Assembly: GCF_900105015.1 (NCBI RefSeq)
Contig: NZ_FNLK01000015.1
Coordinates: 151,702-183,701 of the forward strand
DNA from: Schaalia meyeri
GTDB lineage: Bacteria > Actinomycetota > Actinomycetes > Actinomycetales > Actinomycetaceae
DNA length: 32,000 nt
Direction of reading: 5' to 3'
The notes under the pieces were generated by a model, which ran no database searches, was not told the origin of the DNA, and saw only the letters and a list, made by a program, of their open reading frames with translations. Positions 13,024 to 32,000 of the stretch are shown in pieces. The position numbers and the translations under genes were made by a program. Each line of letters starts with the position of its first letter. The stretch's first letter is position 1.

Positions 13024-13172
13024 TCTATGAGCTTCTATGGGGTTGATGAAGAGTTCTATGAGATACAAGTGGGGTTCTATGAGATAGAAACCGGGGTCTA
13101 TGAGATAGAAACCGGGGTCTATGAGATAGAAACCGGGGTCTATGAGATAGAAACCGAGTTCTATTATCAACG
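13024..13172. repeat. 21-bp AT-rich tandem repeat array; each unit holds the palindrome TCTAT-GAG-ATAGA (candidate operator or iteron array)
   Basis: TCTATG cores at 13034, 13055, 13076, 13097, 13118 and 13139, plus TCTATT at 13160, are spaced exactly 21 bp apart. An extra core lies at 13024. Three identical units TCTATGAGATAGAAACCGGGG span 13076-13138. The array ends ~30 nt before the GTG of the next gene. Confidence 0.9.
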
Positions 13173-15416: not shown

Positions 15417-15430
15417 CGGCTATCCCTCTC

Positions 15431-16356: not shown

Positions 16357-17380
16357 CGGGCTTCACCGCGGTTCCTTCAGTTACGATCCACCTGTTGTCC
16401 CGCCACGTCATAAGTAATGCGACAACCGTTTGATAGTCCGAACCACTGGTCGTGATCTTCTGCCCCCGGCAGGTCGTGCCGTCAGATGAAGTGGTAAGGA
16501 AAGTGACAGAAATCGTATTGGGCGGCACGTCAGTATCAGTGGCGTCGACAGGGTCGACGCGGAGAATACGATCAATCGTTGAACGGTTATCGTATGTCCA
16601 TCCACTTGAGTATGTGTCTCGTATCTTGGAAGCCAGCTTCTGGTGGAAATCGTCTCCGCTATCTGACATATCCATGAACGGTGTGGTGTTTCCTGTGTTC
16701 CATGCGTAGACCAGGAGGGCGAGGTAGTGTTCGGCTGCGGCTTCTGCTCCTCGTTCGGTGTTTTCTGTGGCGGCCTGGGGGAGTTCGGGCAGGGTGTAGG
16801 TGGAGGCGGCGTGTTCGGCGGGGCGTACCAGGACGCCGTCGGGGCCGATCTGGTAGCCGCCCGGCATCGCCGCCTCACCCGACGCGCTCGGCGTCGGCGT
16901 GGGCGTGGGGGCCCGGCCCGACATGGCGGACCGCGTGGGAATAGCGGTGGGGTTCTCGCCCCAGGCGCGCCACCAGCCCTCGGCGACACCGTTGATGTAG
17001 ACGGCGTAGCAGCCCGCGACGATCAACAAGACGACGGCGATGCGGATACCCCAGTCCACCGGATCAGCACGCAGCCAGGCCACGCCCCCACCCGGGCCCC
17101 CACCGCCGAAGGCGGCACCCCCACTCTGACTGCCGCTGTCGAAGGTGGCGTCCCCCTCGCCGGACTGGCTTGTCCCGCTGCTGCGCCCACCGCCGCGCAC
17201 ACGCGGGACCCAGGCCCAGTCCGGCCGCCATCTCCTCGGGCCGATGAAACGCCGACCGAAGAGGCCTCGTCGGGGTTGAATGGAGCGCAGGAAGGCCTCT
17301 TCCTCCTCCTGGCTCACGGGTCGCTCGGACAGGGGTGGTATCTCCATGGCGTGTGCCCTCCACACTGAGGTCTCCTCCAA
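16349..17380 (-). CDS. Membrane protein with C-terminal DUF6318-like domain
   Basis: 343 aa with a Gly/Ser-rich N-terminal region and a TM segment IRIAVVLLIVAGCYAVYI. The extracytoplasmic domain ...RGAEAAAEHYLALLVYAWNTGNTTPFMDMS... is paralogous to the 14706-15416 product. The start may be the internal MEIPPL. Confidence 0.65.
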   Translation of the reverse strand: MEETSVWRAHAMEIPPLSERPVSQEEEEAFLRSIQPRRGLFGRRFIGPRRWRPDWAWVPRVRGGGRSSGTSQSGEGDATFDSGSQSGGAAFGGGGPGGGVAWLRADPVDWGIRIAVVLLIVAGCYAVYINGVAEGWWRAWGENPTAIPTRSAMSGRAPTPTPTPSASGEAAMPGGYQIGPDGVLVRPAEHAASTYTLPELPQAATENTERGAEAAAEHYLALLVYAWNTGNTTPFMDMSDSGDDFHQKLASKIRDTYSSGWTYDNRSTIDRILRVDPVDATDTDVPPNTISVTFLTTSSDGTTCRGQKITTSGSDYQTVVALLMTWRDNRWIVTEGTAVKPDA

Positions 17381-17698
17381 CGCTCCCCCACCACCGGGAC
17401 CGCGCCCTTACACACCACCATACGCCAAGAACCGACACGAAACAATAAGAATACACTGTAACCGTCATGCAACTATTCGCAACACGTCTGCGCGTATGTG
17501 CGTCGAGGTGGAGGTCCTCACCCCGATCGCGGCTGCCTTGTCGCTGAGCAGCGGGTACAAGGAATTTGGTGTGACGCGCGTACGCAGATGTAGATGGGCC
17601 GCCTTACTCTCTGCTTGACAGCCAGGGGCTGTCGATGGTGACAACGACCTATACGAAAGGAAAGACTGTGTTATGCCAGTTAAGCTTGCTGCCTCTTG

Positions 17699-17953
17699 CT
17701 ATAGGGCATCATCGGGTGTTCTCGCGATTATCGCAGTGAGTAGTCCAATGAGCGCAGGAATCGATGCGGTGGTGGTTGCCTCGCCGCTGATGCGCCAGGA
17801 GAGCCGACTTTTTTGCGGCCCGATGATCTGATGTATCGATGAGGCGCGCATTGGTCCAATAATGGTTTTGATTTGGGGTGAGCGATCCACACGGTCGGTC
17901 ATCAGCTGCTGATTCATGGTAGTGGCGTCCGAGTATTCTATGTGCAGTGCCAT
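17699..17953 (-). CDS. Hypothetical small protein (84 aa) with C-terminal hydrophobic segment
   Basis: ORF in a lower-GC intergenic patch. A weak SD (AGGA) lies upstream. The C-terminus IPALIGLLTAIIA is hydrophobic. No family was recognised. Confidence 0.2.
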   Translation of the reverse strand: MALHIEYSDATTMNQQLMTDRVDRSPQIKTIIGPMRASSIHQIIGPQKSRLSWRISGEATTTASIPALIGLLTAIIARTPDDAL

Positions 17954-18245
17954 ACGTCCTGGGAACGAAGAGGCCTAGTGCCTCGGTCGGCACCCTCCTC
18001 TTGTGGGTGGTAGCGTCGCCGTGACGCGGACGCTGTCACGCTGCAAGTTCACCTCAGAATGAACAAATGAGCGGTGTGCCAGAAGTATGAGCCACGCGAA
18101 GTTTGTCGCGCCTCGACGAACAACCATGCATTATAGTGCTACAGTGGCGGCTTCCTCAAGCAGGATGCGGACCTTGACGCTCACCATCCGGCCGAAGGCC
18201 GCAACCCTAAGATTAATAACGTTTGAGTTTGAGAGGGCTTGAGAC

Positions 18246-19772
18246 ATGGTTCCTAAAGGGCACAAGAATCGCTCCATCAAACGCCTCCATCTCGACCTGC
18301 GAAATCCTCGCCTGGGCCGTCCCGCAGTAAAGAACGAGGCAGAGGCCACGAGTCGGCTACTGAGGGAATTCGGGCCAAAGATCGTTGCCTTGGCGAAAAG
18401 TATCGCCGAACACGGTCTTAATCCCACCGAGTCTTGGGCAATCGTCCAAGAAGAGGGCAAGTACGTTGTCCTCGAAGGCAACCGACGCCTCGTCGCCTGC
18501 CGTCTCCTCGACAACCCCAGCAAGGCCCCCGACCCGCAGACAGTTGCAACCTTCGAGCGCATCAAACGAGGAGTCCGCACCACTAGCTCCTATCTGAACC
18601 CCAGCTGCGTAGAGTTCGAGCACCGCGCCGACGCCCGCTACTGGATCCACCTCAAGCACCATGGCGCAGGCAGCGGTGAAGGCACCGCCGCTTGGGGCCC
18701 AGAGATGGTCTACCTCGACCAGGTCAACAGCGGCAGCGCTCCTGTGGAGTGGAAGGAGTTCTGGTACTGGCTGGAGGAGACCTACCAGCACGACCGCCCA
18801 CTGGTCGACCTCATCGACCAGGCCCGACGCGAGCAGTACACCCTCATGGACCGCGTCTACACCTGGAAGGTCAAAGAGCTCCTCGGCGCCAGCTTCACCC
18901 AGCCCGGCCAGATCAACGTCAACGTCGACACCGAGAAGATCAAGCCGTTCATCCATGAACTCATCACCGGGATGCTTACACCTCAACCTAAGGATCCCAA
19001 AGCGCCCGGCGCTGCCGACATTCTCGTCATTTCCTCCCGCACTCTCAACAGCAGAGATGTCGCCAAGGAGATAATTGAGAAGGTGTGGACGGAAACCGTT
19101 GGAGAGGCCGACGTCACTCCCGCAATAGACATTGATACAGCCAAACCTTCGGGGGACACGGCAGATGCCGCGCCGACACCAGACTCTTCCACTCCAGATA
19201 ATGATGCTGCGAAAAGGGATCCGGGCGAGGATCCGGATCCTCACCCGAAAAACGACTCCCGATCCCGCCATCCCAAGCCCCGCAAGAGCGAGACCCACCT
19301 CTACAATGGCGTACGGTGCACCCGCATGCCCGACCGACTCCGGAAGCTGATAAAGGAGTGCGGCGAGCTAGAGATCAGTAAGCATCCTGAGATTGCGTCA
19401 GTCACGGCGCGCGTCGTGGTCGAGCTCGCCGCCGATGCACTCATCGACCACCAGAAGCTCAGGCCGAAAGGCAAGCAGCTCACTGACAAACTTGCCGCTG
19501 TCTTGCGTCACCTCGACCCTCTCCTGGACTCCAAGAACCCCACCCGCCTAGAGCTAGCTGGAACCTGGGCGGCAGTACGCACCGACACCGCTGACGGACA
19601 CTTCGTCCGCGACCTCCACAACTGTGTGCACTCTTACCAGTTCACGGCCGCGACCGAGATAGCCAAACGAGCAAACGCCCTGTTCACGCCCCTGCTCAAC
19701 GCCATCAACACCGACCTCGCCAAGCCGCCCGCTAGTGCGGTGGCCACGAGCAAGAAAAACGGGCAGGCTTGA
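18246..19772 (+). CDS. ParB/Sulfiredoxin-fold N-terminal domain protein with ~400-aa uncharacterised C-terminal region
   Basis: 508 aa with SD gagaggg upstream. The N-terminus reads IKRLHLDLRNPRL...GLNPTESWAIVQEEGKYVVLEGNRRLVACRLL. This is the ParB-N (GxxRxxA-type, Arg-Arg) motif. No known domain was recognised by eye in the remainder. Confidence 0.7.
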   Translation: MVPKGHKNRSIKRLHLDLRNPRLGRPAVKNEAEATSRLLREFGPKIVALAKSIAEHGLNPTESWAIVQEEGKYVVLEGNRRLVACRLLDNPSKAPDPQTVATFERIKRGVRTTSSYLNPSCVEFEHRADARYWIHLKHHGAGSGEGTAAWGPEMVYLDQVNSGSAPVEWKEFWYWLEETYQHDRPLVDLIDQARREQYTLMDRVYTWKVKELLGASFTQPGQINVNVDTEKIKPFIHELITGMLTPQPKDPKAPGAADILVISSRTLNSRDVAKEIIEKVWTETVGEADVTPAIDIDTAKPSGDTADAAPTPDSSTPDNDAAKRDPGEDPDPHPKNDSRSRHPKPRKSETHLYNGVRCTRMPDRLRKLIKECGELEISKHPEIASVTARVVVELAADALIDHQKLRPKGKQLTDKLAAVLRHLDPLLDSKNPTRLELAGTWAAVRTDTADGHFVRDLHNCVHSYQFTAATEIAKRANALFTPLLNAINTDLAKPPASAVATSKKNGQA

Positions 19773-19775
19773 TCC

Positions 19776-20663
19776 GTGAGGTATCTGTCCCCCCTGCGCT
19801 ACCCTGGTGGCAAAGCCCGCCTGGCCCCCTTCTTCGCCCGCTTGATCCGCGCCCAGATCCCCGCCCCGACCCACTACGCCGAGCCCTACGCAGGAGGTGC
19901 CGGCGCCGCCCTACGACTCTTGACCGACGGCGCCGTTGACCACATCCACATCAACGATATCAATGTTGGCGTTGCCGCGTTCTGGCGCACCATCACCGCC
20001 CCCGACGGCGCCAACGCGTTCTGTCAGCTCATCAACAACACCCTCGTCACCGTTGAGCAGTGGAACCACCAGAGAGCCATCTACCAGGCCGGTAAGGGAG
20101 ACGACCTCGCCCTCGGCTTCGCCACTTTTTACCTCAACCGCACCAACCGCTCCGGCATCCTCGACGCGGGCCCCATCGGCGGGTTCGAACAGGTCGGCAA
20201 ATGGAAGATTGATGCCCGCTACAACAAGTCGGCGCTTATCGAGAGGGTCAAACACGTTGCCGCCCTGGGCGACCGCATCCACGTCACCCAGCTCGACGGC
20301 CTCGACTTCCTCACCACAATGGAAGCCCACGCCACGGACGTCCTCGTCTATGCGGACCCGCCCTACGTCGAGCAAGGAGGAAGGCTCTATCTCCACGCCT
20401 TCAATGGCGACGACCATAAGGCTCTAGCCGAAAAACTACAGGCTGCGAAGTACCCATGGTTGTTGACCTACGACGATCAAAGGATTGTCTGGGACAACCT
20501 CTACGATGCCGCCCGCTGCGCCCGCTTTGATATTGCGCATACAGCTGCTATCCAGCATGTCGGCAAGGAGACCATTGTCTATGGCCCAACCCTCACAGTT
20601 CCCACAGATGTAGAGATTACCCCTGGAGTCAGTCCAACTTGGATTGAGAGGTCGCGCCACTAG
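19776..20663 (+). CDS. Dam-family (D12 class, alpha group) N6-adenine DNA methyltransferase
   Basis: 295 aa, with the GTG start 3 nt after the upstream stop. Motifs: LRYPGGKARL, EPYAGGAGAAL (AdoMet motif I), NRTNRSG, YADPPY (catalytic DPPY). Confidence 0.85.
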   Translation: MRYLSPLRYPGGKARLAPFFARLIRAQIPAPTHYAEPYAGGAGAALRLLTDGAVDHIHINDINVGVAAFWRTITAPDGANAFCQLINNTLVTVEQWNHQRAIYQAGKGDDLALGFATFYLNRTNRSGILDAGPIGGFEQVGKWKIDARYNKSALIERVKHVAALGDRIHVTQLDGLDFLTTMEAHATDVLVYADPPYVEQGGRLYLHAFNGDDHKALAEKLQAAKYPWLLTYDDQRIVWDNLYDAARCARFDIAHTAAIQHVGKETIVYGPTLTVPTDVEITPGVSPTWIERSRH

Positions 20664-20702
20664 GAGGAGACATGGGCACCACAGCCAGCCGGATTCGCTG
20701 GT

Positions 20703-20740
20703 CCCCGGGTGCTTGTGATCCGCGTGGTCGGCACCCGGGG
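20703..20740. terminator. Hairpin between convergent methyltransferase and hsdR genes (possible bidirectional terminator)
   Basis: CCCCGGGTGC (20703-20712) and GCACCCGGGG (20731-20740) form a perfect 10-bp inverted repeat with an 18-nt loop. There is no clear T-tract. Confidence 0.35.
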
Positions 20741-20757
20741 TGCGGCGCGCAGGAACT

Positions 20758-23700
20758 TCAGCTCCGCGCCGCGTCTCCCGTTGCCAGGTGTTCGGCCTGT
20801 TCAATCACGAGCCGCACGGCTTCTTCCTGCTTGTCGGGCGGGTACTTGTACCTGGCCAGCAAGCGTTTGATGCGCGATCGCATGCGGGCGCGGACGGATT
20901 CCTTGAATGTCCAATCGATGGTTGCAGACTTCTGGATGGTGGTGACCAGTTCGCGTGCGATGGTCTTCAACGTTTCGTCACCGAGCTCGAGGATTGCAGA
21001 GTCGTTCTGGATAATCGCGTCATATAGAGCGATCTCTGCCTCGTTCAAGCTCAGCTCACGCGATCGTTGCTGGTCCTGGCGCATCTCCTTGGCAAGCTTC
21101 ACCAACTCGGCGATGATCTCCGCCGTTGTCAGTGATCTGTTCGTGTAACGGCTCAATGCCTCGGCGAGCATCTGGGAGAACTTCCGGCCTTGCACCAGGT
21201 TCTTGCGTTGAAGCGTGCGAATCTGGTCGTCGAGCAGCCTACGCAGGAGCCCCAGCTGAAGATTCGGCTGGTTCGAGTGGGCGATGGAGTCCAAGAACTC
21301 GTCTGATAGCAGCGAAAGTTCTGGAGACTTCATACCCACGAATTGGAAAACGTCGACGACCTGGTCTGCGGTGACAGCGTCATTGACCATCTGGCCCAGT
21401 ACTGAGTCGAGGTTGCTGCCGCCTCGTTGGGACTGACCGGCATCAGGATTGAGGATCTTGAGTGCTGCCGCCCGAACGTCGGTGAACAGGCGTACATCAT
21501 CCCGAATGGTTTGTGATTCGGGACGCGAGGCAGTCAGAGCGTAGGCTTTTGCGAGTGCGAGCACCTGGTCGCTGTAGCGCTTGGTCAGATCCGGGTCTGA
21601 GAGCACGTGGTCCAGTACGGCGGCATACTGGGCTAGGCGCTCCTTCGCCGACAGTTCCGTTGAGGAGTCGTAGGTGACACCATGCAGCATCCCTCGGACG
21701 ATATCGTGTTTCTCAAGCATGACGTCAACGAGTTGTTCAATTGGCACACCGGCCTGCTCCCGGTCGGACGGCGAGTAGACGCTGAGCGCTCGCTGCAGGG
21801 AGGTGAACAGCCCAATGTAGTCGACGATGAGTCCGCCGGGCTTGTCCTTGAAACGGCGGTTGACCCGGGCGATTGCCTGCATGAGGCCGGCCCCTTGCAT
21901 GGGCTTGTCCACGTACATGGTGTGCATGGATGGGGCGTCGAATCCCGTGAGCCACATGTCGCGCACGATGACGAGCTCGAGTTCGTCATCGGGGTTCTTG
22001 GCGCGCAGCTTCAGATCGCGGCGCTCGTCCTTGGAGTGGATGTGCACCTGGAACTCTTCTGGGTCGGCCGCCGAGCCGGTCATAACGACTTTGATGCGGC
22101 CCTTGTTGATGTCGTCGGAGTGCCACTGGGGCCGCAGTGCTGTGATCTTGTTGTACAGGGCAACGGCAATACGGCGGCTCATGGTCACGATCATCCCCTT
22201 GCCAGCCATGGAGGCGCGGCGCTTCTCCCAGTGCGCCACGATGTCAGCAGCAACTGCATCCAGCCGGGAGTCCGCCCCGACCAGAGCCTCCAGGCGCGAC
22301 CACTTGGTCTTGGCCTGTTCGGCCTCACCCGTGCTGCTTGCCTCGCTACTGTCATCAACAATGGTGTCCAACTGGCCGAGCTGCTCCTCGTCCAAATTGA
22401 TCTTGGCCAGGCGGGACTCGTAGAAAATCTTGACGGTTGCGCCGTCTTCCACGGCGCGAGTGAGGTCGTAGATGTCGACGTAGTCGCCGAACACAGCACG
22501 GGTGGAGCGATCGTTCGACTCGATGGGCGTTCCGGTGAAGCCGAGGAACGTCGCGCCGGGGAGTGCGTTACGAAGGTGCTTGGCGAGCCCCGCTTTGAGA
22601 CGGCCTTGGCTGTCGAGGGTCTCCTCGAAGCCGTATTGGGATCGGTGCGCTTCGTCGGCCACCACAACAACGTTGCGCCTATCGGTGAGCACCGGGTTCA
22701 TGTCCCCGTCCTGGCCGGGAGCGAACTTCTGCAGTGTGGTGAAGATGATGCCGCCCGATGCGCGGGTGAGCAGCTGACGCAGGTTGTCTCGCCCCGTGGC
22801 CTGGACCGGGGTCTCGGGAAGGATCTGAGCAGGGGAGAACACCTCGCCGAAAAGCTGGTCATCAAGGTCGTTCCGGTCGGTGATGAACACCAGTGTTGGG
22901 TTGGACATGCGCTGGTCCCGCATGAGTTTGGCCGCGTAGAACACCATTTCGAAGCTCTTGCCGGATCCCTGGGTGTGCCACACCACGCCACCGCGCTTGT
23001 CCCCGTTTGGACCGGCTGCCCTGACTGTGGACTCAACGGCAGCGTTGACCGCCCAGTACTGGTGGTACTTCGCAATGCGCTTGATGATCATGCGGCGGCG
23101 TTGACCAGTGGCCGCGTCGGTGACGGGCTCGTCCGAGTAGACGACGAAGTTCCGCAGAATGTCGAGAAACCGTGCGGGGGTGAACACACCCTTGATGAGT
23201 ACTTCGAGTGCTGGAGGGTCTGTGACGATGTCGTGTCCGTCCATGGTCTTCCACGGAGCGTAGTGCTCGAAGCCTCCGGTGAAGGAACTCATCGCCGCAG
23301 ATGTGCCGTCGGAAATGACGGTGATGACGTTGGGGAAGAAGACCGAGGGAATCTGCTTGCGGTATGTCTGAATCTGGTTCCAGGCATTGCGCAGAGTTGC
23401 CTTTTCGTCCGTGGGATTCTTCAGCTCCATGAGGCCGACGGGCAGGCCATTGAGAAACACCAGCACGTCGGGGCGACGGTTGTGGCCCCCCTCGACGACT
23501 GTGAACTGGTTGAGTGCGCGCCAGTCATTGTTCGCCGGATCGTTGAAGTCAACGAGGCGCAGCCGTACTGTGGTGGGTCGACCATCCTCGCCGGTGGTTT
23601 CGACGGGCACGCCCGCCACCATGAGCTCATGAAGCCGCTGGTTCTCACTCATCACGTCCTGGGACTCGGCACGCTGAATGCGCGCGAGCGCGGAGCGCAC

Positions 23701-23904
23701 CAGATCATTCGACGCCCTAGGGTTGAGTCGGACAAGTGCTTCAGCCACGTACGACCACAGAACGCAGTCCCCGGGAGTCTCGCGCGCCTGGCCCACGGGG
23801 GCGTCAACAGGCGCGTATCCGGTGCGGTAACCGATCTCGGCAAGCCACTCCTTCGCGGCCTGTTCGACTGTCGATTCATCAAACCGGTAGACGGAACTAG
23901 TCAT
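20758..23904 (-). CDS. hsdR: Type I restriction enzyme, R subunit
   Basis: Start set at ATG 23904 (MTSSVYRFDES...), overlapping the hsdS stop (ATGACTAG). Motifs: PDVLVFLNGLPVGLMELK nuclease region, helicase motif I HTQGSGKS, DEAH box VVVADEAHRSQ, GFTGTPI. Confidence 0.92.
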   Translation of the reverse strand: MTSSVYRFDESTVEQAAKEWLAEIGYRTGYAPVDAPVGQARETPGDCVLWSYVAEALVRLNPRASNDLVRSALARIQRAESQDVMSENQRLHELMVAGVPVETTGEDGRPTTVRLRLVDFNDPANNDWRALNQFTVVEGGHNRRPDVLVFLNGLPVGLMELKNPTDEKATLRNAWNQIQTYRKQIPSVFFPNVITVISDGTSAAMSSFTGGFEHYAPWKTMDGHDIVTDPPALEVLIKGVFTPARFLDILRNFVVYSDEPVTDAATGQRRRMIIKRIAKYHQYWAVNAAVESTVRAAGPNGDKRGGVVWHTQGSGKSFEMVFYAAKLMRDQRMSNPTLVFITDRNDLDDQLFGEVFSPAQILPETPVQATGRDNLRQLLTRASGGIIFTTLQKFAPGQDGDMNPVLTDRRNVVVVADEAHRSQYGFEETLDSQGRLKAGLAKHLRNALPGATFLGFTGTPIESNDRSTRAVFGDYVDIYDLTRAVEDGATVKIFYESRLAKINLDEEQLGQLDTIVDDSSEASSTGEAEQAKTKWSRLEALVGADSRLDAVAADIVAHWEKRRASMAGKGMIVTMSRRIAVALYNKITALRPQWHSDDINKGRIKVVMTGSAADPEEFQVHIHSKDERRDLKLRAKNPDDELELVIVRDMWLTGFDAPSMHTMYVDKPMQGAGLMQAIARVNRRFKDKPGGLIVDYIGLFTSLQRALSVYSPSDREQAGVPIEQLVDVMLEKHDIVRGMLHGVTYDSSTELSAKERLAQYAAVLDHVLSDPDLTKRYSDQVLALAKAYALTASRPESQTIRDDVRLFTDVRAAALKILNPDAGQSQRGGSNLDSVLGQMVNDAVTADQVVDVFQFVGMKSPELSLLSDEFLDSIAHSNQPNLQLGLLRRLLDDQIRTLQRKNLVQGRKFSQMLAEALSRYTNRSLTTAEIIAELVKLAKEMRQDQQRSRELSLNEAEIALYDAIIQNDSAILELGDETLKTIARELVTTIQKSATIDWTFKESVRARMRSRIKRLLARYKYPPDKQEEAVRLVIEQAEHLATGDAARS

Positions 23905-25084
23905 CAACTGACTCCTTTCCAAACGCGTCCGCGACGAGCCGACCAGCCTCGTCGACTCGCATCCGCCCGCTCATCAGCTCCGGCAACAGTGTATCGCGGA
24001 GCTCAGCAAGCATCCTGGTTTCGATGGAACAATGATGTGCCATTTCTTCAAGTGTTGAAAGCTGTTCGACGACGGTCTTCTGCTCTTCGAGAGTAAGCAA
24101 AGGAACCTGTAGTGATCCAAGACTTGACGGGGAAAGTTCTGTCTGTCCCGTGGAACCCTCAGCCATTTGTTCAATCTCTGACTGGAGCGGAAAAACAAGG
24201 TACGGAAGAAGAACCGGTGAAATGCGCTGCCGGTCAGCCTTTACGACTGTCACGTGGCCGTCGACGTAGACGGGTTCCCGATAACTCCAACGACCGACTC
24301 TGCCGAGGGTCCCCTGGCCCGTTGAATTGACAAGTAAATCATCAAATTCTGCTATAGCGGATTTCTTCTCGCGCCTGCGAGGTAGCATCAGGCGTGCTGA
24401 GCTGAGCGACACCCATCCATCTCGAATGCATCTTTGATTCAAAACGCAGATAGGCGTTGCATTATGACCCTTGTAGTATTTTGGAGTAACTCCCCGCGAA
24501 ATAGACTCCGCATAGTAACTAAGCGGCACACATGACGTATTGCGTATTAAATAGTCCGTAATAGCGAGCCCTAGTTTACGGCAGAGAACTCGTCGGCGAT
24601 GGTTGAAGTCGATCTTGTCATCAAGTCTCCCCAGAAGGTCACCTATTGCCATTTGCTGCTCGTACGTGAAGTCTGCAATTTCGTACTCGGAAATTGTGTC
24701 CCAGTTTGCGCGAGGCATCCTTGTGCCCGTCGCAGAAGCCGAAGCGAGGTTGGTAAACTCAGGAAGTGCCGCTACGTAAAACAGAAAACGAGGATCAGTG
24801 CCGTTTTTCGGTTGAAACACCCAGAAGTCTGAAGAACAAATGCCGTAGCTTGACCCTGTCCATACTACCTTACGAAAGTATGGACGTAAACGGCCGTAGA
24901 TGGTGTCGTTAGGGAAAAAAGCTAACTTCGCACTGGAAACTGCTTTCGGCGTGTCCCACTGTGTAATATGGAGAGAGCCAGGAGCGATGCTGTCGTACCC
25001 AAGGTATTTGCAGTATTCTTTAAATTTGTCGGGTCGAACAAGTTGCCGACGTAGTTCTGCGATTTCACCAAACCTCACTGCCAC
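23897..25084 (-). CDS. hsdS: Type I restriction-modification specificity subunit
   Basis: 395 aa sandwiched between hsdM and hsdR, with overlapping stops and starts. It has a two-TRD architecture with conserved helical spacers (...LLPELMSGRMRV at the C-terminus). GC is visibly lower than in the neighbours. Confidence 0.85.
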   Translation of the reverse strand: MAVRFGEIAELRRQLVRPDKFKEYCKYLGYDSIAPGSLHITQWDTPKAVSSAKLAFFPNDTIYGRLRPYFRKVVWTGSSYGICSSDFWVFQPKNGTDPRFLFYVAALPEFTNLASASATGTRMPRANWDTISEYEIADFTYEQQMAIGDLLGRLDDKIDFNHRRRVLCRKLGLAITDYLIRNTSCVPLSYYAESISRGVTPKYYKGHNATPICVLNQRCIRDGWVSLSSARLMLPRRREKKSAIAEFDDLLVNSTGQGTLGRVGRWSYREPVYVDGHVTVVKADRQRISPVLLPYLVFPLQSEIEQMAEGSTGQTELSPSSLGSLQVPLLTLEEQKTVVEQLSTLEEMAHHCSIETRMLAELRDTLLPELMSGRMRVDEAGRLVADAFGKESVDD

Positions 25085-26646
25085 TCCTTGAGGGAGACGT
25101 GAATTTGTTCTTCAAGGAGGTGATCTATCTCGAACGCATTGAGAAGTTCGTTTGTCAGACGTGTTATTCTCTTCTCAATCGGCTCAGCATCGGGGTCGAT
25201 GGAGTCGTCGAGTCCGACGTACCGGCCGGGGGTGAGGATGAAGTCGTTGTCGGTGATTTCCTGGATAGTGGCTGCTTTGCAGAATCCGGGCACATTCTCG
25301 TAGTCATTGTACTCAGTCCGGGAGCGCCACGTATTGTACACACTGGAGATTCGCTCGATGTCATCAGCAGTGAGCTGACGGTGGGCGCGAGTGATCATCT
25401 CACCCGTGTTGCGCGCGTCGATGAACAATACCTCGCCGTGCCGGTCGCGGTGCCCGTCGCCATGACGGTTCTTGGAAAGGAACCACAGGCAGGCCGGGAT
25501 GCCGGTGTTGAAGAAGAGTTTGTCGGGCAGTGCCACGATGCAGTCCACCACGTCCGCCTCGACCATAGCTCGGCGGATGATGCCGTCAGTCTTTGCTTTG
25601 GAGGAGAGCGCCCCGTTCGCCATGACGAAGCCCGCGCTACCAGAAGGGCTCAAGTGGTAGAGGAAATGCTGAATCCACGCGTAGTTCGCGTTAGAGTCGT
25701 TCGGAGTGTCATACACCCAACGCGGGTCGTCCTGGAGTGTGGCGGACCAGTAGCCCTTGAGGTTGAAGGGCGGGTTGGCGATGATGAAGTCCGCGCGCAG
25801 ATCCGGGTGCTGGTCCTCGGTGAAGGTCTCAGCGTCCCGAGGGCCGAGGTCTGCCTCGATCCCTCTCAGCGCCAGGTTCATCTTAGCCAGTCTCCACGTG
25901 GACGCAGCCTTCTCCTGGCCGTAGATCGACAGTTCGTCGCGATTTCCGCCGTGCGCCTCAACGAACCTCGCGGATTGCACGAACATACCACCACTGCCGC
26001 AGCATGGATCGTACACGCGACCTGAAAAAGGCTGGAGCATCTCCACAAGGAGGTTGACGACGCTCCTTGGCGTGTAAAATTCCCCGCCGTCCTTGCCCTT
26101 CTCCGCGCCGGCGAACATACCGAGGAAATACTCGTAGACTCTGCCGAGGATGTCGTCGGCATTGTGATCGTCGTCAGCGCCGAATCCGATGGAGCCGATG
26201 AGGTCGATGAGTTCACCGAGCATCTCCTCCTTGAGGTCCTCGCGTCCGTAGTTGCGCGGCAGCACGCCCATGAGTGATGGGTTCGCCCGCTCAATCAACC
26301 GCATGGCCCCGTCGATTCGCTGGCCGATTCCGGGGAGTTTCGCCGCTGCTTGGAGCTGATCCCAACGCGCGCCGCCGGGAATCCAAAAGACGTTGTGACC
26401 AGAGTACTCGTCCCTGTCCTCCAGGAACGACCCGGTCTGCGCTTCGTCCAAGCCGTCCTCAACGAGCTCCCGGCGCAGCTCCTCCCGGCGCTCCGCGAAT
26501 TTGTCCGAGACGTACTTGAGGAACACGAGCCCGAGCACAACGTGCTTGTATTCAGAGGCCTCCTGGTTCCCCTTCGCCCGCATTGTTTCAGCGGTAGACC
26601 AAAGAGTTTGCTCAATACTCGGCGTCGTTCTTTTGTCTGTCGGCAT
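25075..26646 (-). CDS. hsdM: Type I restriction-modification N6-adenine methyltransferase subunit
   Basis: 523 aa. The N-terminal HsdM domain reads LWSTAETMRAKG...YKHVVLGLVFLKYVSD. Also present are the AdoMet motif VYDPCCGSGGMF and the catalytic motif IIANPPFN. Confidence 0.92.
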   Translation of the reverse strand: MPTDKRTTPSIEQTLWSTAETMRAKGNQEASEYKHVVLGLVFLKYVSDKFAERREELRRELVEDGLDEAQTGSFLEDRDEYSGHNVFWIPGGARWDQLQAAAKLPGIGQRIDGAMRLIERANPSLMGVLPRNYGREDLKEEMLGELIDLIGSIGFGADDDHNADDILGRVYEYFLGMFAGAEKGKDGGEFYTPRSVVNLLVEMLQPFSGRVYDPCCGSGGMFVQSARFVEAHGGNRDELSIYGQEKAASTWRLAKMNLALRGIEADLGPRDAETFTEDQHPDLRADFIIANPPFNLKGYWSATLQDDPRWVYDTPNDSNANYAWIQHFLYHLSPSGSAGFVMANGALSSKAKTDGIIRRAMVEADVVDCIVALPDKLFFNTGIPACLWFLSKNRHGDGHRDRHGEVLFIDARNTGEMITRAHRQLTADDIERISSVYNTWRSRTEYNDYENVPGFCKAATIQEITDNDFILTPGRYVGLDDSIDPDAEPIEKRITRLTNELLNAFEIDHLLEEQIHVSLKEWQ

Positions 26647-26896
26647 TGCGATTTCCTTAGCTATCTCCCGCTTGCTTCAACGGCTTGTCGATCACCGTGA
26701 GGGCTCGCAGGGAGTTGTGGTGTCGGTGTGTGATTCTAGCGGGGAGATCTCCTCCGATGTCTTCCGAGGTGCCCCAATCGACACGACAAAGGATCTTACG
26801 CTCAGAACCTTGACGGATCTGGTGGGAGTTTGATCGGCGAATGTCGCCGCCGACAGGAACCTTGGGACTCGGTCCCCCGGTCCCAAGGGCTCTGAC

Positions 26897-27646
26897 CTAC
26901 CCCTGACTCACCTCGGCCCGGATGAGGGGGATCGGGTAGGCGGCGGCCGAGATGGGGGAGAGGTAGGAATCGGTGATGCCCGCGGTGAAGGCGTCGATGC
27001 CGAGGACCTTGTAGAGGGCGTTGCGGCCGAACTTGGTGGAGTCCGCGACGAAGTAGGCGGTCGACGCGATCGCGCGGACCTTCTGCTGCAGCTCGATCGA
27101 GTAGCCGGAGGAGGCGTAGATGCCGTCCTCCATCACCGAGTTTGCCCCAAACACGGCGGTGTTCACGCGGATGTGGTCCAGCTGGTCGATCGCGGTCGGC
27201 CCCCACATGTGCGTCCGGTTGGGCAGCAGCTCGCCCCCGACGAACACCAGGTTCAGCGATGGCTTCTTGAGGATCTCCAGGCCAACCAGCAGGTCGTGCG
27301 TCACCACGGTGACGCGGCGGGCGTTGAGGGCGCGCGCAACCTCCAGGCACGTCGACCCCGAGTCGAGGAAGACGGACTGCCCGTCCAGGATCCGCTCCGC
27401 CATCGCCGGCCCGATCGCGCGCTTCTCGGCTCGGTTGGGCGAATCGTGCAGGAACTCCTCGGTGTCCTCGTCCTGCGGGACGGGGATCGCGCCTCCGTGG
27501 GTGCGGCGCACGAGGCCCGCCTCGGCAAGGTGCTCCAGGTCCCTGCGGATGGTTGACACGTTGACCTCGAGGGCTTCCGCCAGGGAGGACACGGTCTCGA
27601 AGCCTGTCGCCTCAATCATGGAAACAATGGTGTCTTGCCGGGTCAC
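26897..27646 (-). CDS. DeoR-family transcriptional regulator
   Basis: 249 aa with a GTG start. The HTH reads VSSLAEALEVNVSTIRRDLEHLAEAGLVRRTHGGA, followed by a DeoR C-terminal sugar-phosphate-sensor domain. It is divergent from the sugar ABC genes. Confidence 0.88.
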   Translation of the reverse strand: MTRQDTIVSMIEATGFETVSSLAEALEVNVSTIRRDLEHLAEAGLVRRTHGGAIPVPQDEDTEEFLHDSPNRAEKRAIGPAMAERILDGQSVFLDSGSTCLEVARALNARRVTVVTHDLLVGLEILKKPSLNLVFVGGELLPNRTHMWGPTAIDQLDHIRVNTAVFGANSVMEDGIYASSGYSIELQQKVRAIASTAYFVADSTKFGRNALYKVLGIDAFTAGITDSYLSPISAAAYPIPLIRAEVSQG

Positions 27647-28038
27647 GATGCTTCCTTCTGCTGGCTACGGACGGGGGACGGCGGCGGAATCAACGACGGA
27701 TGCCTGCAACAGGGCATCGCGGACTCCGCCCTCTTGACACTGTAGCGAACTTTCGGAGCGAATGTGCGCGATACCGCGCAACGAGAGATCTCGCGAGTAA
27801 TCGCAGTCTACGGGGAGTTATTCGCTCAGTATTTGCGTGTAACCGTGCAACCGAGCGGAGAGGACCGCGCGATGATGGCTGCTTCAGCGCATGAGACATG
27901 CGCGAAAGAGAGTTGTAAATGCGCGAAAGCGCGTGTACTGTTGGTGATTGCGACGCGGGTCACGCCATGTTGCGTGCGCCATCGCGGGAGATGGCGAACC
28001 CACAGCGTCGGCCAACGAGATCACGAGGAAGTGACGAC

Positions 28039-29085
28039 ATGAAGATCGGAAGACTGAGCGCGGCAGCGATGTCCATTGCGTCGATCCTGGCTCTGACGGC
28101 CTGCTCGACCGTCGGTGGGACGGCCGGGGAGAACCCCGGGAGCACCACCGGATCGGCCTCAGGCGATGCCAGCAAGACGATGGTCACCGTCGTCAAGGTC
28201 AAGGGAATCGCCTGGTTTGATCGAATGGACGTCGGAGTCAAGGAGTGGGGCGCCGCCAACGGCTACGACACGCGAACGGAAGGAGGAACGGACGTCTCCC
28301 CCGAGAAGCAGATCCAGATCATCCAGGATCTCATCGCGCAAAAGCCCGCGGCCATCACCGTCGTCCCCAACTCCCCCGAGGCCCTCTCCGCGGTCCTTGA
28401 GCAGGCCCGAGCCCAGGGCATCAAGGTGGTCTCCCACGAGGCGACCGGCATCAAGAACGTCGACGTCGACATCGAAGCCTTCGACAACGCCTCCTACGGG
28501 GTAGACATCATGAAGAGCATCGGCGAATGCACTGGCGGCACCGGCAAGTACGTGCAATTCGTCGGCGGCCTGACCGCCAAGACCCACATGGAATGGGTCG
28601 AGGCAGCCTACGACTACCAGCAGAAGAACTTCCCAGGCATGGAGCGAGTCGAAACGCCCATCGAGTCCACCGACAACGAGACCGCCGCCTACGAGAAGGC
28701 GAAGGAGGTGCTCGGCAAGTACCCCGACATCAAGGCCTTCCAGGGCTCCGCAGGTAACGACGTGCCCGGCATTGCACGCGCGATCGAAGAAGCCGGCCTC
28801 TCCGACCAGGTCTGCGTCATGGGAACCTCCATCCCCTCCGCCTCCGCCAAGTACCTCGCCACCGGATCGATCGACAAGATCTTCTTCTGGGATCCCGCCC
28901 TCGCCGGGAAGGCCCAGCTCCAGATCGCCAAGATCCTCGCTGACGGCGGAACCATCACCGAGGGCACGGACCTCGGCATCGAGGGCTACAACAACCTGCA
29001 CAAGCTCGACGGCTACGACAACGTCTGGGTCGGCTCCGCCCAGATCGCCGCCGACGCCGAGCAAGCCAAGAAGTACAACTTCTAA
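28039..29085 (+). CDS. Sugar ABC transporter substrate-binding lipoprotein (PBP1, RbsB/LsrB-like)
   Basis: Start at the internal ATG 28039 (MKIGRLSAAAMSIASILALTACS, lipobox LTAC) with SD gaggaag upstream. The track start 27919 was rejected. The body is a type 1 periplasmic-binding fold (VVKVKGIAWFDRM..., ITVVPNSPEAL...). Confidence 0.85.
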   Translation: MKIGRLSAAAMSIASILALTACSTVGGTAGENPGSTTGSASGDASKTMVTVVKVKGIAWFDRMDVGVKEWGAANGYDTRTEGGTDVSPEKQIQIIQDLIAQKPAAITVVPNSPEALSAVLEQARAQGIKVVSHEATGIKNVDVDIEAFDNASYGVDIMKSIGECTGGTGKYVQFVGGLTAKTHMEWVEAAYDYQQKNFPGMERVETPIESTDNETAAYEKAKEVLGKYPDIKAFQGSAGNDVPGIARAIEEAGLSDQVCVMGTSIPSASAKYLATGSIDKIFFWDPALAGKAQLQIAKILADGGTITEGTDLGIEGYNNLHKLDGYDNVWVGSAQIAADAEQAKKYNF

Positions 29086-29092
29086 CGAGGCG

Positions 29093-29128
29093 GCCCCGGC
29101 CTCGGCGCGAGAAAGGCGAGGCCGGGGC
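29093..29128 (+). other. Intercistronic GC-rich stem-loop between SBP and ATPase genes
   Basis: GCCCCGGCCTCG (29093-29104) and CGAGGCCGGGGC (29117-29128) form a perfect 12-bp stem with a 12-nt loop and no T-tract. Such hairpins commonly stabilise the SBP part of ABC operon mRNAs. A mirror copy lies at 29906-29941. Confidence 0.5.
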
Positions 29129-29175
29129 TCGCGTCCCACGACAGCGCTGTCCACACGACACTCGAAGGAGAGCAC

Positions 29176-29547
29176 ATGCGCACCAATGTGGAACAAGCAC
29201 CGCGCCCCAACGGACAAGGCTCGAGCGCGCACGAGAACCCCTTCCTAGAGGTTCGTCATATTGTCAAAAACTTTGGCGGCGTCCGAGCCCTCGACAGTGT
29301 CGACCTGGCTGTGTGGCCCGGCGAGGTCCTGTGCCTGGCCGGAGAGAACGGCTGCGGGAAATCAACCCTCATCAAGGTAATTTCCGGCGTACACCGGCCA
29401 GACTCAGGAACCATCGCAATTGACGGCCAAGAAATCACGGCACTCACGCCGCTCAGTGCGATGAAAGCAGGCATTCAGGTCATCTACCAGGACTTCTCCT
29501 CCCCCTCCGTCCGGTCTCCAACCTCACCCGTGGACCGAGAACATCAT
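29176..29547 (+). pseudogene. Sugar ABC transporter ATP-binding protein, N-terminal ~100 codons only; reading frame decays in the palindrome spacer
   Basis: The sequence [49 protein letters not shown] contains Walker A. The Q-loop region reads [11 protein letters not shown]. Beyond 29484 the expected motifs appear only across three frames. The gene is then cut by the start of the inverted right arm. Confidence 0.75.
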
Positions 29548-29858
29548 GATGACCTGAATGCCTGCTTTTCATCGCACTGAGCGGCGTGAGTGCCGTGATT
29601 TCTTGGCCGTCAATTGCGATGGTTCCTGAGTCTGGCCGGTGTACGCCGGAAATTACCTTGATGAGGGTTGATTTCCCGCAGCCGTTCTCTCCGGCCAGGC
29701 ACAGGACCTCGCCGGGCCACACAGCCAGGTCGACACTGTCGAGGGCTCGGACGCCGCCAAAGTTTTTGACAATATGACGAAACCTCTAGGAAGGGGTTCT
29801 CGTGCGCGCTCGAGCCTTGTCCGTTGGGGCGCGGTGCTTGTTCCACATTGGTGCGCAT
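29548..29858 (-). pseudogene. Mirror copy of the ABC ATPase 5' fragment, frameshifted
   Basis: It starts with the identical [26 protein letters not shown]. An extra T (AAA at 29780-29782 on the plus strand versus TT at 29252-29253 in the left arm) then shifts the frame. Confidence 0.7.
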
Positions 29859-29948
29859 GTGCTCTCCTTCGAGTGTCGTGTGGACAGCGCTGTCGTGGGA
29901 CGCGAGCCCCGGCCTCGCCTTTCTCGCGCCGAGGCCGGGGCCGCCTCG

Positions 29949-30995
29949 TTAGAAGTTGTACTTCTTGGCTTGCTCGGCGTCGGCGGCGATCTGGGCGGAG
30001 CCGACCCAGACGTTGTCGTAGCCGTCGAGCTTGTGCAGGTTGTTGTAGCCCTCGATGCCGAGGTCCGTGCCCTCGGTGATGGTTCCGCCGTCAGCGAGGA
30101 TCTTGGCGATCTGGAGCTGGGCCTTCCCGGCGAGGGCGGGATCCCAGAAGAAGATCTTGTCGATCGATCCGGTGGCGAGGTACTTGGCGGAGGCGGAGGG
30201 GATGGAGGTTCCCATGACGCAGACCTGGTCGGAGAGGCCGGCTTCTTCGATCGCGCGTGCAATGCCGGGCACGTCGTTACCTGCGGAGCCCTGGAAGGCC
30301 TTGATGTCGGGGTACTTGCCGAGCACCTCCTTCGCCTTCTCGTAGGCGGCGGTCTCGTTGTCGGTGGACTCGATGGGCGTTTCGACTCGCTCCATGCCTG
30401 GGAAGTTCTTCTGCTGGTAGTCGTAGGCTGCCTCGACCCATTCCATGTGGGTCTTGGCGGTCAGGCCGCCGACGAATTGCACGTACTTGCCGGTGCCGCC
30501 AGTGCATTCGCCGATGCTCTTCATGATGTCTACCCCGTAGGAGGCGTTGTCGAAGGCTTCGATGTCGACGTCGACGTTCTTGATGCCGGTCGCCTCGTGG
30601 GAGACCACCTTGATGCCCTGGGCTCGGGCCTGCTCAAGGACCGCGGAGAGGGCCTCGGGGGAGTTGGGGACGACGGTGATGGCCGCGGGCTTTTGCGCGA
30701 TGAGATCCTGGATGATCTGGATCTGCTTCTCGGGGGAGACGTCCGTTCCTCCTTCCGTTCGCGTGTCGTAGCCGTTGGCGGCGCCCCACTCCTTGACTCC
30801 GACGTCCATTCGATCAAACCAGGCGATTCCCTTGACCTTGACGACGGTGACCATCGTCTTGCTGGCATCGCCTGAGGCCGATCCGGTGGTGCTCCCGGGG
30901 TTCTCCCCGGCCGTCCCACCGACGGTCGAGCAGGCCGTCAGAGCCAGGATCGACGCAATGGACATCGCTGCCGCGCTCAGTCTTCCGATCTTCAT
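29949..30995 (-). CDS. Mirror copy of the sugar-binding lipoprotein gene
   Basis: The translation is identical to 28039..29085(+). Whether it exists in the real genome depends on whether the inverted duplication is genuine. Confidence 0.6.
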   Translation of the reverse strand: MKIGRLSAAAMSIASILALTACSTVGGTAGENPGSTTGSASGDASKTMVTVVKVKGIAWFDRMDVGVKEWGAANGYDTRTEGGTDVSPEKQIQIIQDLIAQKPAAITVVPNSPEALSAVLEQARAQGIKVVSHEATGIKNVDVDIEAFDNASYGVDIMKSIGECTGGTGKYVQFVGGLTAKTHMEWVEAAYDYQQKNFPGMERVETPIESTDNETAAYEKAKEVLGKYPDIKAFQGSAGNDVPGIARAIEEAGLSDQVCVMGTSIPSASAKYLATGSIDKIFFWDPALAGKAQLQIAKILADGGTITEGTDLGIEGYNNLHKLDGYDNVWVGSAQIAADAEQAKKYNF

Positions 30996-31387
30996 GTCGT
31001 CACTTCCTCGTGATCTCGTTGGCCGACGCTGTGGGTTCGCCATCTCCCGCGATGGCGCACGCAACATGGCGTGACCCGCGTCGCAATCACCAACAGTACA
31101 CGCGCTTTCGCGCATTTACAACTCTCTTTCGCGCATGTCTCATGCGCTGAAGCAGCCATCATCGCGCGGTCCTCTCCGCTCGGTTGCACGGTTACACGCA
31201 AATACTGAGCGAATAACTCCCCGTAGACTGCGATTACTCGCGAGATCTCTCGTTGCGCGGTATCGCGCACATTCGCTCCGAAAGTTCGCTACAGTGTCAA
31301 GAGGGCGGAGTCCGCGATGCCCTGTTGCAGGCATCCGTCGTTGATTCCGCCGCCGTCCCCCGTCCGTAGCCAGCAGAAGGAAGCATC

Positions 31388-32000
31388 GTGACCCGGCAAG
31401 ACACCATTGTTTCCATGATTGAGGCGACAGGCTTCGAGACCGTGTCCTCCCTGGCGGAAGCCCTCGAGGTCAACGTGTCAACCATCCGCAGGGACCTGGA
31501 GCACCTTGCCGAGGCGGGCCTCGTGCGCCGCACCCACGGAGGCGCGATCCCCGTCCCGCAGGACGAGGACACCGAGGAGTTCCTGCACGATTCGCCCAAC
31601 CGAGCCGAGAAGCGCGCGATCGGGCCGGCGATGGCGGAGCGGATCCTGGACGGGCAGTCCGTCTTCCTCGACTCGGGGTCGACGTGCCTGGAGGTTGCGC
31701 GCGCCCTCAACGCCCGCCGCGTCACCGTGGTGACGCACGACCTGCTGGTTGGCCTGGAGATCCTCAAGAAGCCATCGCTGAACCTGGTGTTCGTCGGGGG
31801 CGAGCTGCTGCCCAACCGGACGCACATGTGGGGGCCGACCGCGATCGACCAGCTGGACCACATCCGCGTGAACACCGCCGTGTTTGGGGCAAACTCGGTG
31901 ATGGAGGACGGCATCTACGCCTCCTCCGGCTACTCGATCGAGCTGCAGCAGAAGGTCCGCGCGATCGCGTCGACCGCCTACTTCGTCGCGGACTCCACCA
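31388..32000 (+). CDS. Mirror copy of the DeoR-family regulator gene (3' end beyond window)
   Basis: This is the reverse complement of 27034..27646, with GTG at 31388 and the same MTRQDTIVSMIEATGFETVSSLAEALEV... translation. Whether it is real depends on the inverted duplication being genuine. Confidence 0.6.
   Translation, partial: MTRQDTIVSMIEATGFETVSSLAEALEVNVSTIRRDLEHLAEAGLVRRTHGGAIPVPQDEDTEEFLHDSPNRAEKRAIGPAMAERILDGQSVFLDSGSTCLEVARALNARRVTVVTHDLLVGLEILKKPSLNLVFVGGELLPNRTHMWGPTAIDQLDHIRVNTAVFGANSVMEDGIYASSGYSIELQQKVRAIASTAYFVADST

What the first reader, a model, noticed from the sequence alone, without database searches (positions are those of the whole stretch)
27034..32000. Near-perfect inverted duplication of at least 2.45 kb per arm, folding back on a 63-nt spacer inside an ABC ATPase gene
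What the sequence shows:
- From 27034 to about 29250, each base x is the reverse complement of base 59034-x. After that the offset shifts by 1 and then 2 nt, up to 29484/29548.
- The ORF track mirrors this with identical 388-aa, 357-aa, 205-aa and 127-aa ORFs on opposite strands.
- The arms carry deoR, the sugar-binding lipoprotein gene and the first ~100 codons of the ATPase gene.
- The centre is a unique 63-nt spacer (29485-29547).
- The right arm runs off the window, so the outer boundary is not visible.
- I see no transposase, integrase or IS-like ends at the fold point.

Interpretation: long, almost perfect palindromes with a short spacer are normally unstable in bacteria because of hairpin or cruciform processing by SbcCD and replication slippage. 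The most parsimonious reading is therefore a fold-back (template-then-complement) chimeric long read assembled at a contig end. If the structure is real, it would be a remarkable palindromic duplication. It would destroy the transporter ATPase and permease genes and double the regulator and binding-protein genes.
Basis: partly seen in the sequence, partly recalled or inferred. Interest (0 to 1): 0.7.

Follow-up and report, generated by a model that had tools for sequence, protein, structure and literature searches.

The report
Fold-back assembly artefact, not a palindrome
The 2.45-kb mirror-image duplication is really in the sequence, but it is almost certainly an artefact of long-read sequencing and assembly, because a finished genome of the same strain has the normal, uninterrupted sugar-transporter operon at this spot.

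Summary
Window 27034-29484 and 29548-32000 are reverse complements (2451 vs 2453 nt, no mismatches, two 1-nt indels). The left limit is only the mirror of the window end.

- Window 1-29499 is 100% identical to the complete genome CP066065.1 (GCA_016127995.1).
- In that genome the locus runs deoR, binding protein, intact 514-aa ABC ATPase, two permeases, Dak1, Dak2. Five related Schaalia/Actinomyces genomes are collinear with it.
- The "unique 63-nt spacer" is the next 50 nt of the native ATPase gene plus 13 spurious inserted bases.
- The turn lies at a native 6-bp inverted repeat, GTCATC...GATGAC.
- All 15 differences from the reference are inserted bases. All fall within 283 nt at the turn: 13 in the loop and 2 homopolymer insertions in the right arm.
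- This suggests the junction rests on very few raw reads.

The likeliest mechanism is an in-vitro snap-back of a 3' end at the 6-bp repeat, followed by self-primed fill-in. The hairpin molecule was then read through and assembled.

A real inverted duplication in the sequenced culture cannot be strictly excluded without reads (about 5%).

The parts
27034..29484 (+). Left arm. This is the native copy. It carries part of deoR, the binding-protein gene and ATPase codons 1-103.
   Evidence: 100% identical to CP066065.1 with no gaps. Perfect complement of the right arm apart from 2 extra bases in the right arm.
26897..27646 (-). deoR-family regulator gene (249 aa). It starts outside the visible arm.
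   Evidence: Pfam HTH_DeoR + DeoRC. The exact protein is on record only once, on CP066065.1.
28039..29085 (+). Sugar-binding lipoprotein gene (Peripla_BP_4). The likely true start is M41 of the 388-aa ORF 27919-29085.
   Evidence: Pfam E=1e-56. Lipobox ILALTAC. The gene call in the reference is 348 aa.
29176..29553 (+). 5' part of the ABC ATPase gene. It is native and in frame up to 29499, then garbled by inserted bases, and ends at the junction.
   Evidence: Pfam ABC_tran on residues 39-107. The native gene encodes 514 aa with two ABC_tran domains in CP066065.1.
29479..29484 (+). GTCATC, the left half of the native 6-bp inverted repeat at which the fold-back was primed.
   Evidence: Native gene sequence. 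The DNA fold pairs it with the 3'-terminal GATGAC.
29485..29547 (+). Loop. It holds 50 nt of native ATPase sequence (TACCAGG...AACATCAT) plus 13 spurious inserted bases in 6 events at 29500-29534.
   Evidence: Base-by-base comparison with CP066065.1 and with five relatives.
29548..29553 (+). GATGAC, the junction microhomology. It is shared by the native downstream sequence and the start of the reverse-complement arm.
   Evidence: The two BLAST segments against the reference overlap at exactly 29548-29553.
29548..32000 (-). Right arm. This is the reverse-complement copy, cut by the window end. It has two extra homopolymer bases (about 29569 and 29782) that frameshift the ATPase fragment. It carries a mirrored binding-protein ORF at 29949-31115 (-) and a partial deoR at 31388-32000 (+).

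Best explanation
The palindrome is not part of the organism's genome. It is a fold-back chimera produced during long-read library preparation or sequencing and kept by the assembler.

Proposed steps:
1. (Inferred) A DNA fragment ended in a single-stranded 3' tail terminating at ...ATCATGATGAC inside the ABC ATPase gene.
2. (Inferred) The last 6 nt (GATGAC) annealed to GTCATC, which lies 50 nt upstream on the same strand. A repair or fill-in polymerase extended the end back along its own strand. This gave a hairpin molecule with a 50-nt native loop.
3. (Inferred) A long-read sequencer read through the hairpin: forward strand, loop, then reverse complement.
4. (Inferred) The assembler kept this read or these few reads. 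The arms were corrected to perfection by ordinary reads from the same locus. The loop and the first ~235 nt of the second arm, supported only by the chimeric read(s), stayed at near-raw quality.

Shown directly: the geometry, the native loop, the 6-bp junction homology, the clustering of insertion-only errors, and the absence of the structure from an identical finished genome and from relatives.

The insertion-only errors suggest PacBio CLR-type data.
For: 1. Window 1-29499 is 100% identical (0 mismatches, 0 gaps) to CP066065.1, 1,728,078 down to 1,698,580. In that 2,033,037-bp complete genome the locus continues as an intact 514-aa ATPase, two BPD_transp_2 permeases, Dak1 and Dak2.
2. That 7.7-kb operon is collinear in one piece with five related genomes, L001-L005, at about 84% nt identity. 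The uninterrupted form is therefore ancestral.
3. All differences from the reference are 15 inserted bases in 8 events inside 283 nt at the fold. There are 13 in the loop and 2 in right-arm homopolymers, and none in the other 31.7 kb. The chance of such clustering is about 4e-15.
4. The loop keeps all 50 native bases in order. The two alignments overlap on GATGAC, the reverse complement of GTCATC at the end of the left arm. The probability of 6-bp complementarity at a blunt joint is 2.4e-4.
5. The native strand ending in GATGAC-3' folds with that end paired to GTCATC, in both the MFE and centroid structures.
6. There is no independent occurrence. The junction is absent from viral and metagenome contigs. 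The chimeric 134-aa ORF is not on record. DeoR is on record once only.
7. Fold-back or inverted-repeat chimeric reads are a documented long-read artefact. Breakpoints lie within 200 bp, about 0.6% of ONT gDNA reads are affected, and up to 7% in ligation preps (PMC12870357; PMC13141652). Polymerase-made inverted chimeras typically join at 2-21 nt of complementarity between nearby segments (PMC1855051).
Against: - No raw reads, coverage or contig boundaries are available. Read support for the junction was inferred from consensus quality and not measured.
- The source assembly of the window could not be located. It could in principle be a different culture of the strain.
- 26% inserted bases in the loop is higher than I would expect from a typical raw read. 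The exact error process is therefore not explained.
- 6-bp inverted repeats within 100 nt are common, at about 4% of positions. The site itself is not special, and the same junction would also result from template switching in vivo.
- Heinz et al. saw almost no fold-backs in the three modern PacBio data sets they tested.
Confidence: 0.8

Rival explanations
1. It is an artefact made by a different route. One option is a missed SMRTbell adapter. Another is an unsplit template-then-complement nanopore read. A third is an in-silico mis-join in which the assembler or consensus graph switched strands at the short inverted repeat.
For: - The extra bases make 29493-29510 a 16/18 match to the core of the PacBio hairpin adapter, CTTTTCCTCCTCCTCCGT.
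- 0 of 4200 genomic 63-mers score as high.
- Only 0.2-0.4% of simulations with the same insertions placed at random score as high. The adapter sequence was verified.
- All the general evidence for an artefact applies here too.
Against: - A missed adapter or unsplit duplex read gives arms that are symmetric right up to the adapter or fragment end. Here 50 nt of native sequence lie asymmetrically between the arms, and the arms stop exactly at the 6-bp repeat.
- The adapter resemblance was noticed post hoc in a CT-rich stretch. Only about 11-18 of the adapter's 45 nt are represented.
Confidence: 0.12
2. It is a real inverted duplication in the sequenced culture. It would have been formed in vivo by replication template switching or hairpin-primed repair at the 6-bp inverted repeat. 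This is ODIRA-like or palindrome-type rearrangement. It would inactivate the transporter and duplicate deoR and the binding-protein gene.
For: - The junction architecture (short inverted repeat, retained spacer, long perfect arms) is exactly what in-vivo models produce (PMC10766183 and PMC3315005, listed).
- The arms have no substitutions, as expected for a very recent event.
Against: - The structure is absent from a finished genome that is identical over 29.5 kb and from all relatives.
- A real structure at normal coverage should have a loop polished as well as the arms. Instead it has 13 spurious insertions, and only one arm has two frameshifting homopolymer errors next to the turn.
- There is no independent occurrence anywhere searched.
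- From established E. coli work, a long palindrome with a short spacer is expected to be unstable.
- A single fold-back junction in a circular chromosome needs a second novel junction, and none is visible.
Confidence: 0.05
3. It is the hairpin telomere of a linear replicon that was read around its closed end.
For: Reading through a covalently closed hairpin end also gives sequence followed by its reverse complement.
Against: - The turn is inside a gene that is intact and internal (about position 1.70 Mb) in the finished genome CP066065.1.
- The centre has a 50-nt asymmetric loop and is not a perfect palindrome.
- No Pfam hit suggests a protelomerase, although several genes there have no Pfam hit at all.
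Confidence: 0.01

Closest known systems
Foldback (duplicated-inversion) artefact reads in long-read sequencing (Heinz, Meyerson & Li 2026, PMC12870357; Xie et al. 2026, PMC13141652)
   Same: [quoted passage not shown]
- The breakpoints are less than 200 bp apart (here 50-56 nt).
- The structure is absent from the true genome.
- The cause is attributed to library preparation.
   Different: - Here it is seen in an assembled consensus and not in single reads.
- The error profile is insertion-only, which is PacBio-CLR-like. Those papers found the artefact mainly in ONT ligation and direct-cDNA data.
- The loop and the junction homology are resolved here at base level.
Polymerase-made inverted chimeras, as in multiple displacement amplification (Lasken & Stockwell 2007, PMC1855051)
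   Same: - The join is inverted and connects two nearby segments.
- It is primed at a short complementary stretch. That paper reports 2-21 nt; here it is 6 nt.
   Different: - Nothing shows that amplification was used on this sample.
- That study argued that simple hairpin self-priming was not the main route in MDA. The geometry here (3' end re-annealing upstream on its own strand) fits self-priming or strand switching.
In-vivo inverted duplications formed at short inverted repeats or palindromes (ODIRA in yeast, PMC10766183; palindrome-centred inverted duplications in E. coli sbcCD/recA backgrounds, PMC3315005)
   Same: The junction anatomy is the same: a short inverted repeat, a retained spacer and long perfect arms.
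   Different: - Those rearrangements are present in the genome and supported by independent molecules.
- Here an identical finished genome lacks the structure, and the junction has raw-read quality.

Membership tests
Long-read fold-back chimera carried into an assembly | The two halves map to the same locus on opposite strands, with breakpoints within about 200 bp. | tested here: met
   Both halves map to CP066065.1 at the same place on opposite strands. The breakpoints are 50-56 nt apart. The criterion comes from PMC12870357.
Long-read fold-back chimera carried into an assembly | The structure is absent from an independent or finished assembly of the same genome. | tested here: met
   There are 0 differences over 29,499 nt, yet the reference has the intact operon. 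Relatives are collinear with the reference.
Long-read fold-back chimera carried into an assembly | The junction is supported only by one or a few (symmetric) reads, while ordinary reads cross the site without a break. | not testable with these tools
   No reads are available. There is a proxy only: all 15 consensus errors in 32 kb lie within 283 nt of the turn.
Long-read fold-back chimera carried into an assembly | It lies at a contig end, or there is a coverage step beyond the arm. | not testable with these tools
   The right arm runs off the window. The source contig could not be found.
Snap-back / template-switch junction (as opposed to blunt joining) | There is short complementarity exactly at the joint, and native sequence is retained as the loop. 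| tested here: met
   6-bp GTCATC/GATGAC overlap and a 50-nt native loop. The 3' end pairs there in the DNA fold.
Missed SMRTbell adapter / unsplit duplex read | The arms are symmetric right up to an adapter, or there is no spacer. | tested here: not met
   The loop is native sequence and asymmetric. Only a 16/18 partial resemblance to the adapter core is present.
Genuine inverted duplication (template switching in vivo) | It is present in the genome, with independent support and a second outer junction. | tested here: not met
   It is absent from the identical finished genome and has no other occurrence. The outer junction is not visible in the window.
Hairpin telomere of a linear replicon | A perfect palindrome at a natural replicon end, together with a telomere resolvase. 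| tested here: not met
   The loop is 50 nt and asymmetric. The site is inside an ORF at about 1.70 Mb of a 2.03-Mb record. No Pfam hit suggests a resolvase.
IS / transposon-mediated inversion | A transposase or terminal inverted repeats at the breakpoint. | tested here: not met
   No transposase or integrase domains appear in the Pfam results for this stretch. The breakpoint sequence is purely native gene.

The most novel reading that the evidence does not exclude
The sequenced culture, or a subpopulation of it, really carried a giant fold-back inverted duplication. It would have been created in vivo by strand switching at a 6-bp inverted repeat inside the ABC ATPase gene, and it would have been tolerated by a Schaalia/Actinomyces-like bacterium despite a spacer of only 50 nt.
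Probability: 0.05. Interest if true: 0.55.

Novelty: not a real feature. Interest (0 to 1): 0.08.

Why it matters
The value is mainly for quality control. The deposited or scanned sequence contains a false inverted duplication. That duplication would wrongly suggest a destroyed sugar-transporter operon and duplicated regulator and binding-protein genes.

The case also gives a base-level recipe for recognising such artefacts without reads:
- a native loop;
- a few bases of inverted microhomology at the joint;
- consensus errors that pile up only at the turn;
- a normal locus in the same strain's finished genome.

If the structure were real, it would be an unusual example of a long, nearly spacer-less palindrome maintained in a bacterial chromosome.

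Tried and rejected
Attempts to find the source contig, to see whether it ends after the arm, all failed:
- Exact-protein look-ups of the 388-aa ORF and of the chimeric 134-aa ORF found nothing.
- DeoR and HsdM are on record only in CP066065.1, once each.
- There was no hit in PLSDB plasmids.
- The junction pattern was absent from viral and metagenome contigs.
- The single genome-contig scan returned only relatives at 93% aa identity or less.

Attempts to name the organism of CP066065.1 / GCA_016127995.1 from the literature gave no paper. I therefore call it only Schaalia/Actinomyces-like, from its nearest relatives.

Hypotheses considered and rejected:
- Missed-adapter origin. The loop is native, although a 16/18 adapter-like stretch remains unexplained.
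- A specially evolved hairpin at the site. The fold energy is ordinary, z = -0.08.
- A hairpin telomere, or IS-mediated inversion. No supporting genes or ends were found.
- Structured RNA or tRNA in the window. None was found.
Full report

Yes. The repeat finder reports two perfectly complementary blocks: 27034-29253 / 29781-32000 and 29252-29466 / 29567-29781. A BLAST of the left side against the reverse complement of the right side gives one alignment of 2451 vs 2453 nt, with no mismatches and two one-base gaps.

A third perfect block, 29467-29484 / 29548-29565, completes the arms. The mirrored 388-, 357-, 205- and 127-aa ORFs are there.

The left limit, 27034, is simply 59034 minus the window end. 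The real arm length is therefore unknown.

**2. What the arms carry**

Pfam gives this layout:

| Window coordinates | Strand | Feature |
|---|---|---|
| 20758-23922 | - | Type I restriction-modification hsdR |
| 23897-25084 | - | hsdS |
| 25075-26646 | - | hsdM |
| 26897-27646 | - | DeoR regulator |
| 27919-29085 | + | Peripla_BP_4 binding protein (ORF) |
| from 29176 | + | N-terminus of an ABC ATPase |

- The binding protein has a lipobox, ILALTAC, after an internal Met, so its true start is probably M41.
- The ATPase reading frame is continuous only in the left arm. In the right arm it is split into short ORFs.

**3. Relatives**

A scan of one genome per species with the binding protein found Schaalia/Actinomyces genomes as the closest relatives (92-93% aa, about 86% nt).

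In these genomes the ATPase gene reads on through ...CAGGTCATCTACCAGGACTTCAGCCTGTTCTCGAACCTGACGGTCGCCGAGAACATCATGATGACC.... This shows that the window's "spacer" is a garbled continuation of the gene and not unique DNA.

**4. The decisive comparison**

The exact HsdM, DeoR and a 460-aa protein of the window are on record on only one contig. That contig is CP066065.1 of assembly GCA_016127995.1, a complete 2,033,037-bp record.

- Window 1-21017 and 15075-29499 are 100% identical to it, with no mismatch and no gap.
- Window 1-29499 therefore equals record positions 1,728,078 down to 1,698,580. This is the same strain.
- In that genome the locus is not palindromic. deoR and the binding-protein gene are followed by an intact 514-aa ATPase with two ABC_tran domains, two BPD_transp_2 permeases, Dak1 and Dak2.
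- This 7.7-kb operon aligns in one piece with five related genomes. The uninterrupted form is therefore ancestral, and the reference is not a mis-assembly.

**5. Anatomy of the turn**

The native sequence is ...GGCATTCAG**GTCATC**TACCAGGACTTCTCCCTGTTCTCCAACCTCACCGTGGCCGAGAACATCAT**GATGAC**ATCCTCC....

- The window follows it through GATGAC (29548-29553). It then continues with CTGAATGCC..., which is the reverse complement of the sequence upstream of GTCATC.
- The two alignments to the reference overlap on exactly these 6 nt.
- The fold-back therefore happened at a native 6-bp inverted repeat with a 50-nt loop.
- A strand ending in GATGAC-3' folds with that end paired to GTCATC, in both the MFE and the centroid structure. 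An inner 7-bp helix helps. The energy is ordinary, z = -0.08.
- Such sites are common: about 4% of positions have a 6-mer whose complement lies 3-100 nt upstream.
- At a fixed blunt joint, 6 bp of complementarity would occur with probability 2.4e-4. This argues for an annealing-primed event and against end-to-end joining or an unsplit template/complement read.

**6. Error pattern**

The window differs from the reference only by 15 inserted bases in 8 events.

- Thirteen lie in the loop (29500-29534).
- One lies at about 29569 (TTT to TTTT) and one at about 29782 (AA to AAA). Both are in the right arm.
- There are no substitutions and no deletions, and nothing differs anywhere else in 32 kb.
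- The chance that 8 events fall within one 283-nt span is about 4e-15.

My inference runs as follows. The arms were corrected by the many ordinary reads from the locus. The turn, which exists only in the chimeric molecule(s), kept near-raw quality, and correction improved with distance from the turn. A real palindrome at full coverage should have a clean loop. From general knowledge, insertion-dominated errors are typical of PacBio CLR data.

**7. An unexplained detail**

The inserted bases turn 29493-29510 into CTTCTCCTCCCCCTCCGT. This is a 16/18 match to the core of the PacBio hairpin adapter.

- No genomic 63-mer scores as high.
- Only 0.2-0.4% of simulations with the same insertions placed at random score as high.
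- The adapter sequence was confirmed.

A plain missed adapter does not fit, because all 50 native loop bases are present in order and the arms stop exactly at the 6-bp repeat. I noticed the resemblance post hoc, in a CT-rich stretch. I list it as a lead that, if anything, points again to a sequencing artefact.

**8. Independent occurrence**

None was found.

- The junction is absent from viral and metagenome contig collections.
- The chimeric 134-aa ORF is not on record.
- DeoR occurs once only.
- There is no plasmid record with this DNA.
- The source contig of the window could not be located. Whether it ends just beyond the arm remains untested.

**9. Comparison with what is known**

Fold-back or "inverted repeat" chimeric reads are a documented long-read artefact.

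- Heinz et al. define them as two segments mapping within 200 bp on opposite strands. They find about 0.6% in ONT genomic DNA and argue for an origin in library preparation (PMC12870357).
- Xie et al. find up to 7.3% in ligation libraries, including microbial standards (PMC13141652).
- Lasken & Stockwell showed that polymerase-made chimeras are mostly inversions between nearby segments, joined at 2-21 nt of complementarity (PMC1855051).
- The same junction type arises in vivo by template switching at short inverted repeats (PMC10766183) or around palindromes in E. coli (PMC3315005). The anatomy alone therefore cannot separate in vitro from in vivo.
- What separates them here is the identical finished genome without the structure, together with the raw-quality turn.

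**10. Verdict**

| Explanation | Probability |
|---|---|
| Any artefact | about 0.92 |
| Snap-back hairpin molecule specifically | about 0.8 |
| Real inverted duplication in the sequenced culture | about 0.05 |
| Hairpin telomere | about 0.01 |

Interest is low. The finding is useful as a quality-control flag on the source assembly.

Noticed in passing
window 12675-12759 and 13055-13164: There are two tandem arrays in one ~520-nt intergenic gap. One is 17 nt x5 (CGCTCGCGGGGGTGTCT). The other is 21 nt x5.2 (TCTATGAGATAGAAACCGGGG) and ends at the start of a 488-aa SLFN_AlbA_2/HATPase_c_4 gene. Both are identical in CP066065.1. Their function is unknown; they could be repeated protein-binding sites.
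   Followed up: partly
window 12907-12930: A perfect 24-nt palindrome, CGAGTGTTTCAC|GTGAAACACTCG, lies in the same intergenic gap, preceded by a small GCCGA/TCGGC hairpin (read). It may be an operator.
   Followed up: no
window ~6000-13000: This block has about 70% G+C against about 60% around it. It encodes a 663-aa and a 460-aa protein with no Pfam hit, a long ZnuA-type binding protein (567 aa), an ABC ATPase and an ABC-3 permease. It may be a horizontally acquired metal-uptake cluster.
   Followed up: no
window 18246-26646: This stretch carries a Type I restriction-modification system (hsdR/S/M), a MethyltransfD12 (Dam-like) methylase and a 460-aa protein with no Pfam hit. The nearest related genomes share DNA only from 26897 onward, so this looks like a strain-specific defence island. 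The hsdS region drops to 50% G+C.
   Followed up: partly
window 29493-29510: The spurious inserted bases create a 16/18 match to the PacBio SMRTbell adapter core. This is statistically unusual (about 0.3% of simulations) but was noticed post hoc and does not fit a simple missed adapter.
   Followed up: partly
window 27919-28038: The 388-aa ORF of the binding protein probably starts 40 codons too early. A signal peptide with lipobox (MKIGRLSAAAMSIASILALTAC) begins at M41, which matches the 348-aa gene call in the reference.
   Followed up: yes
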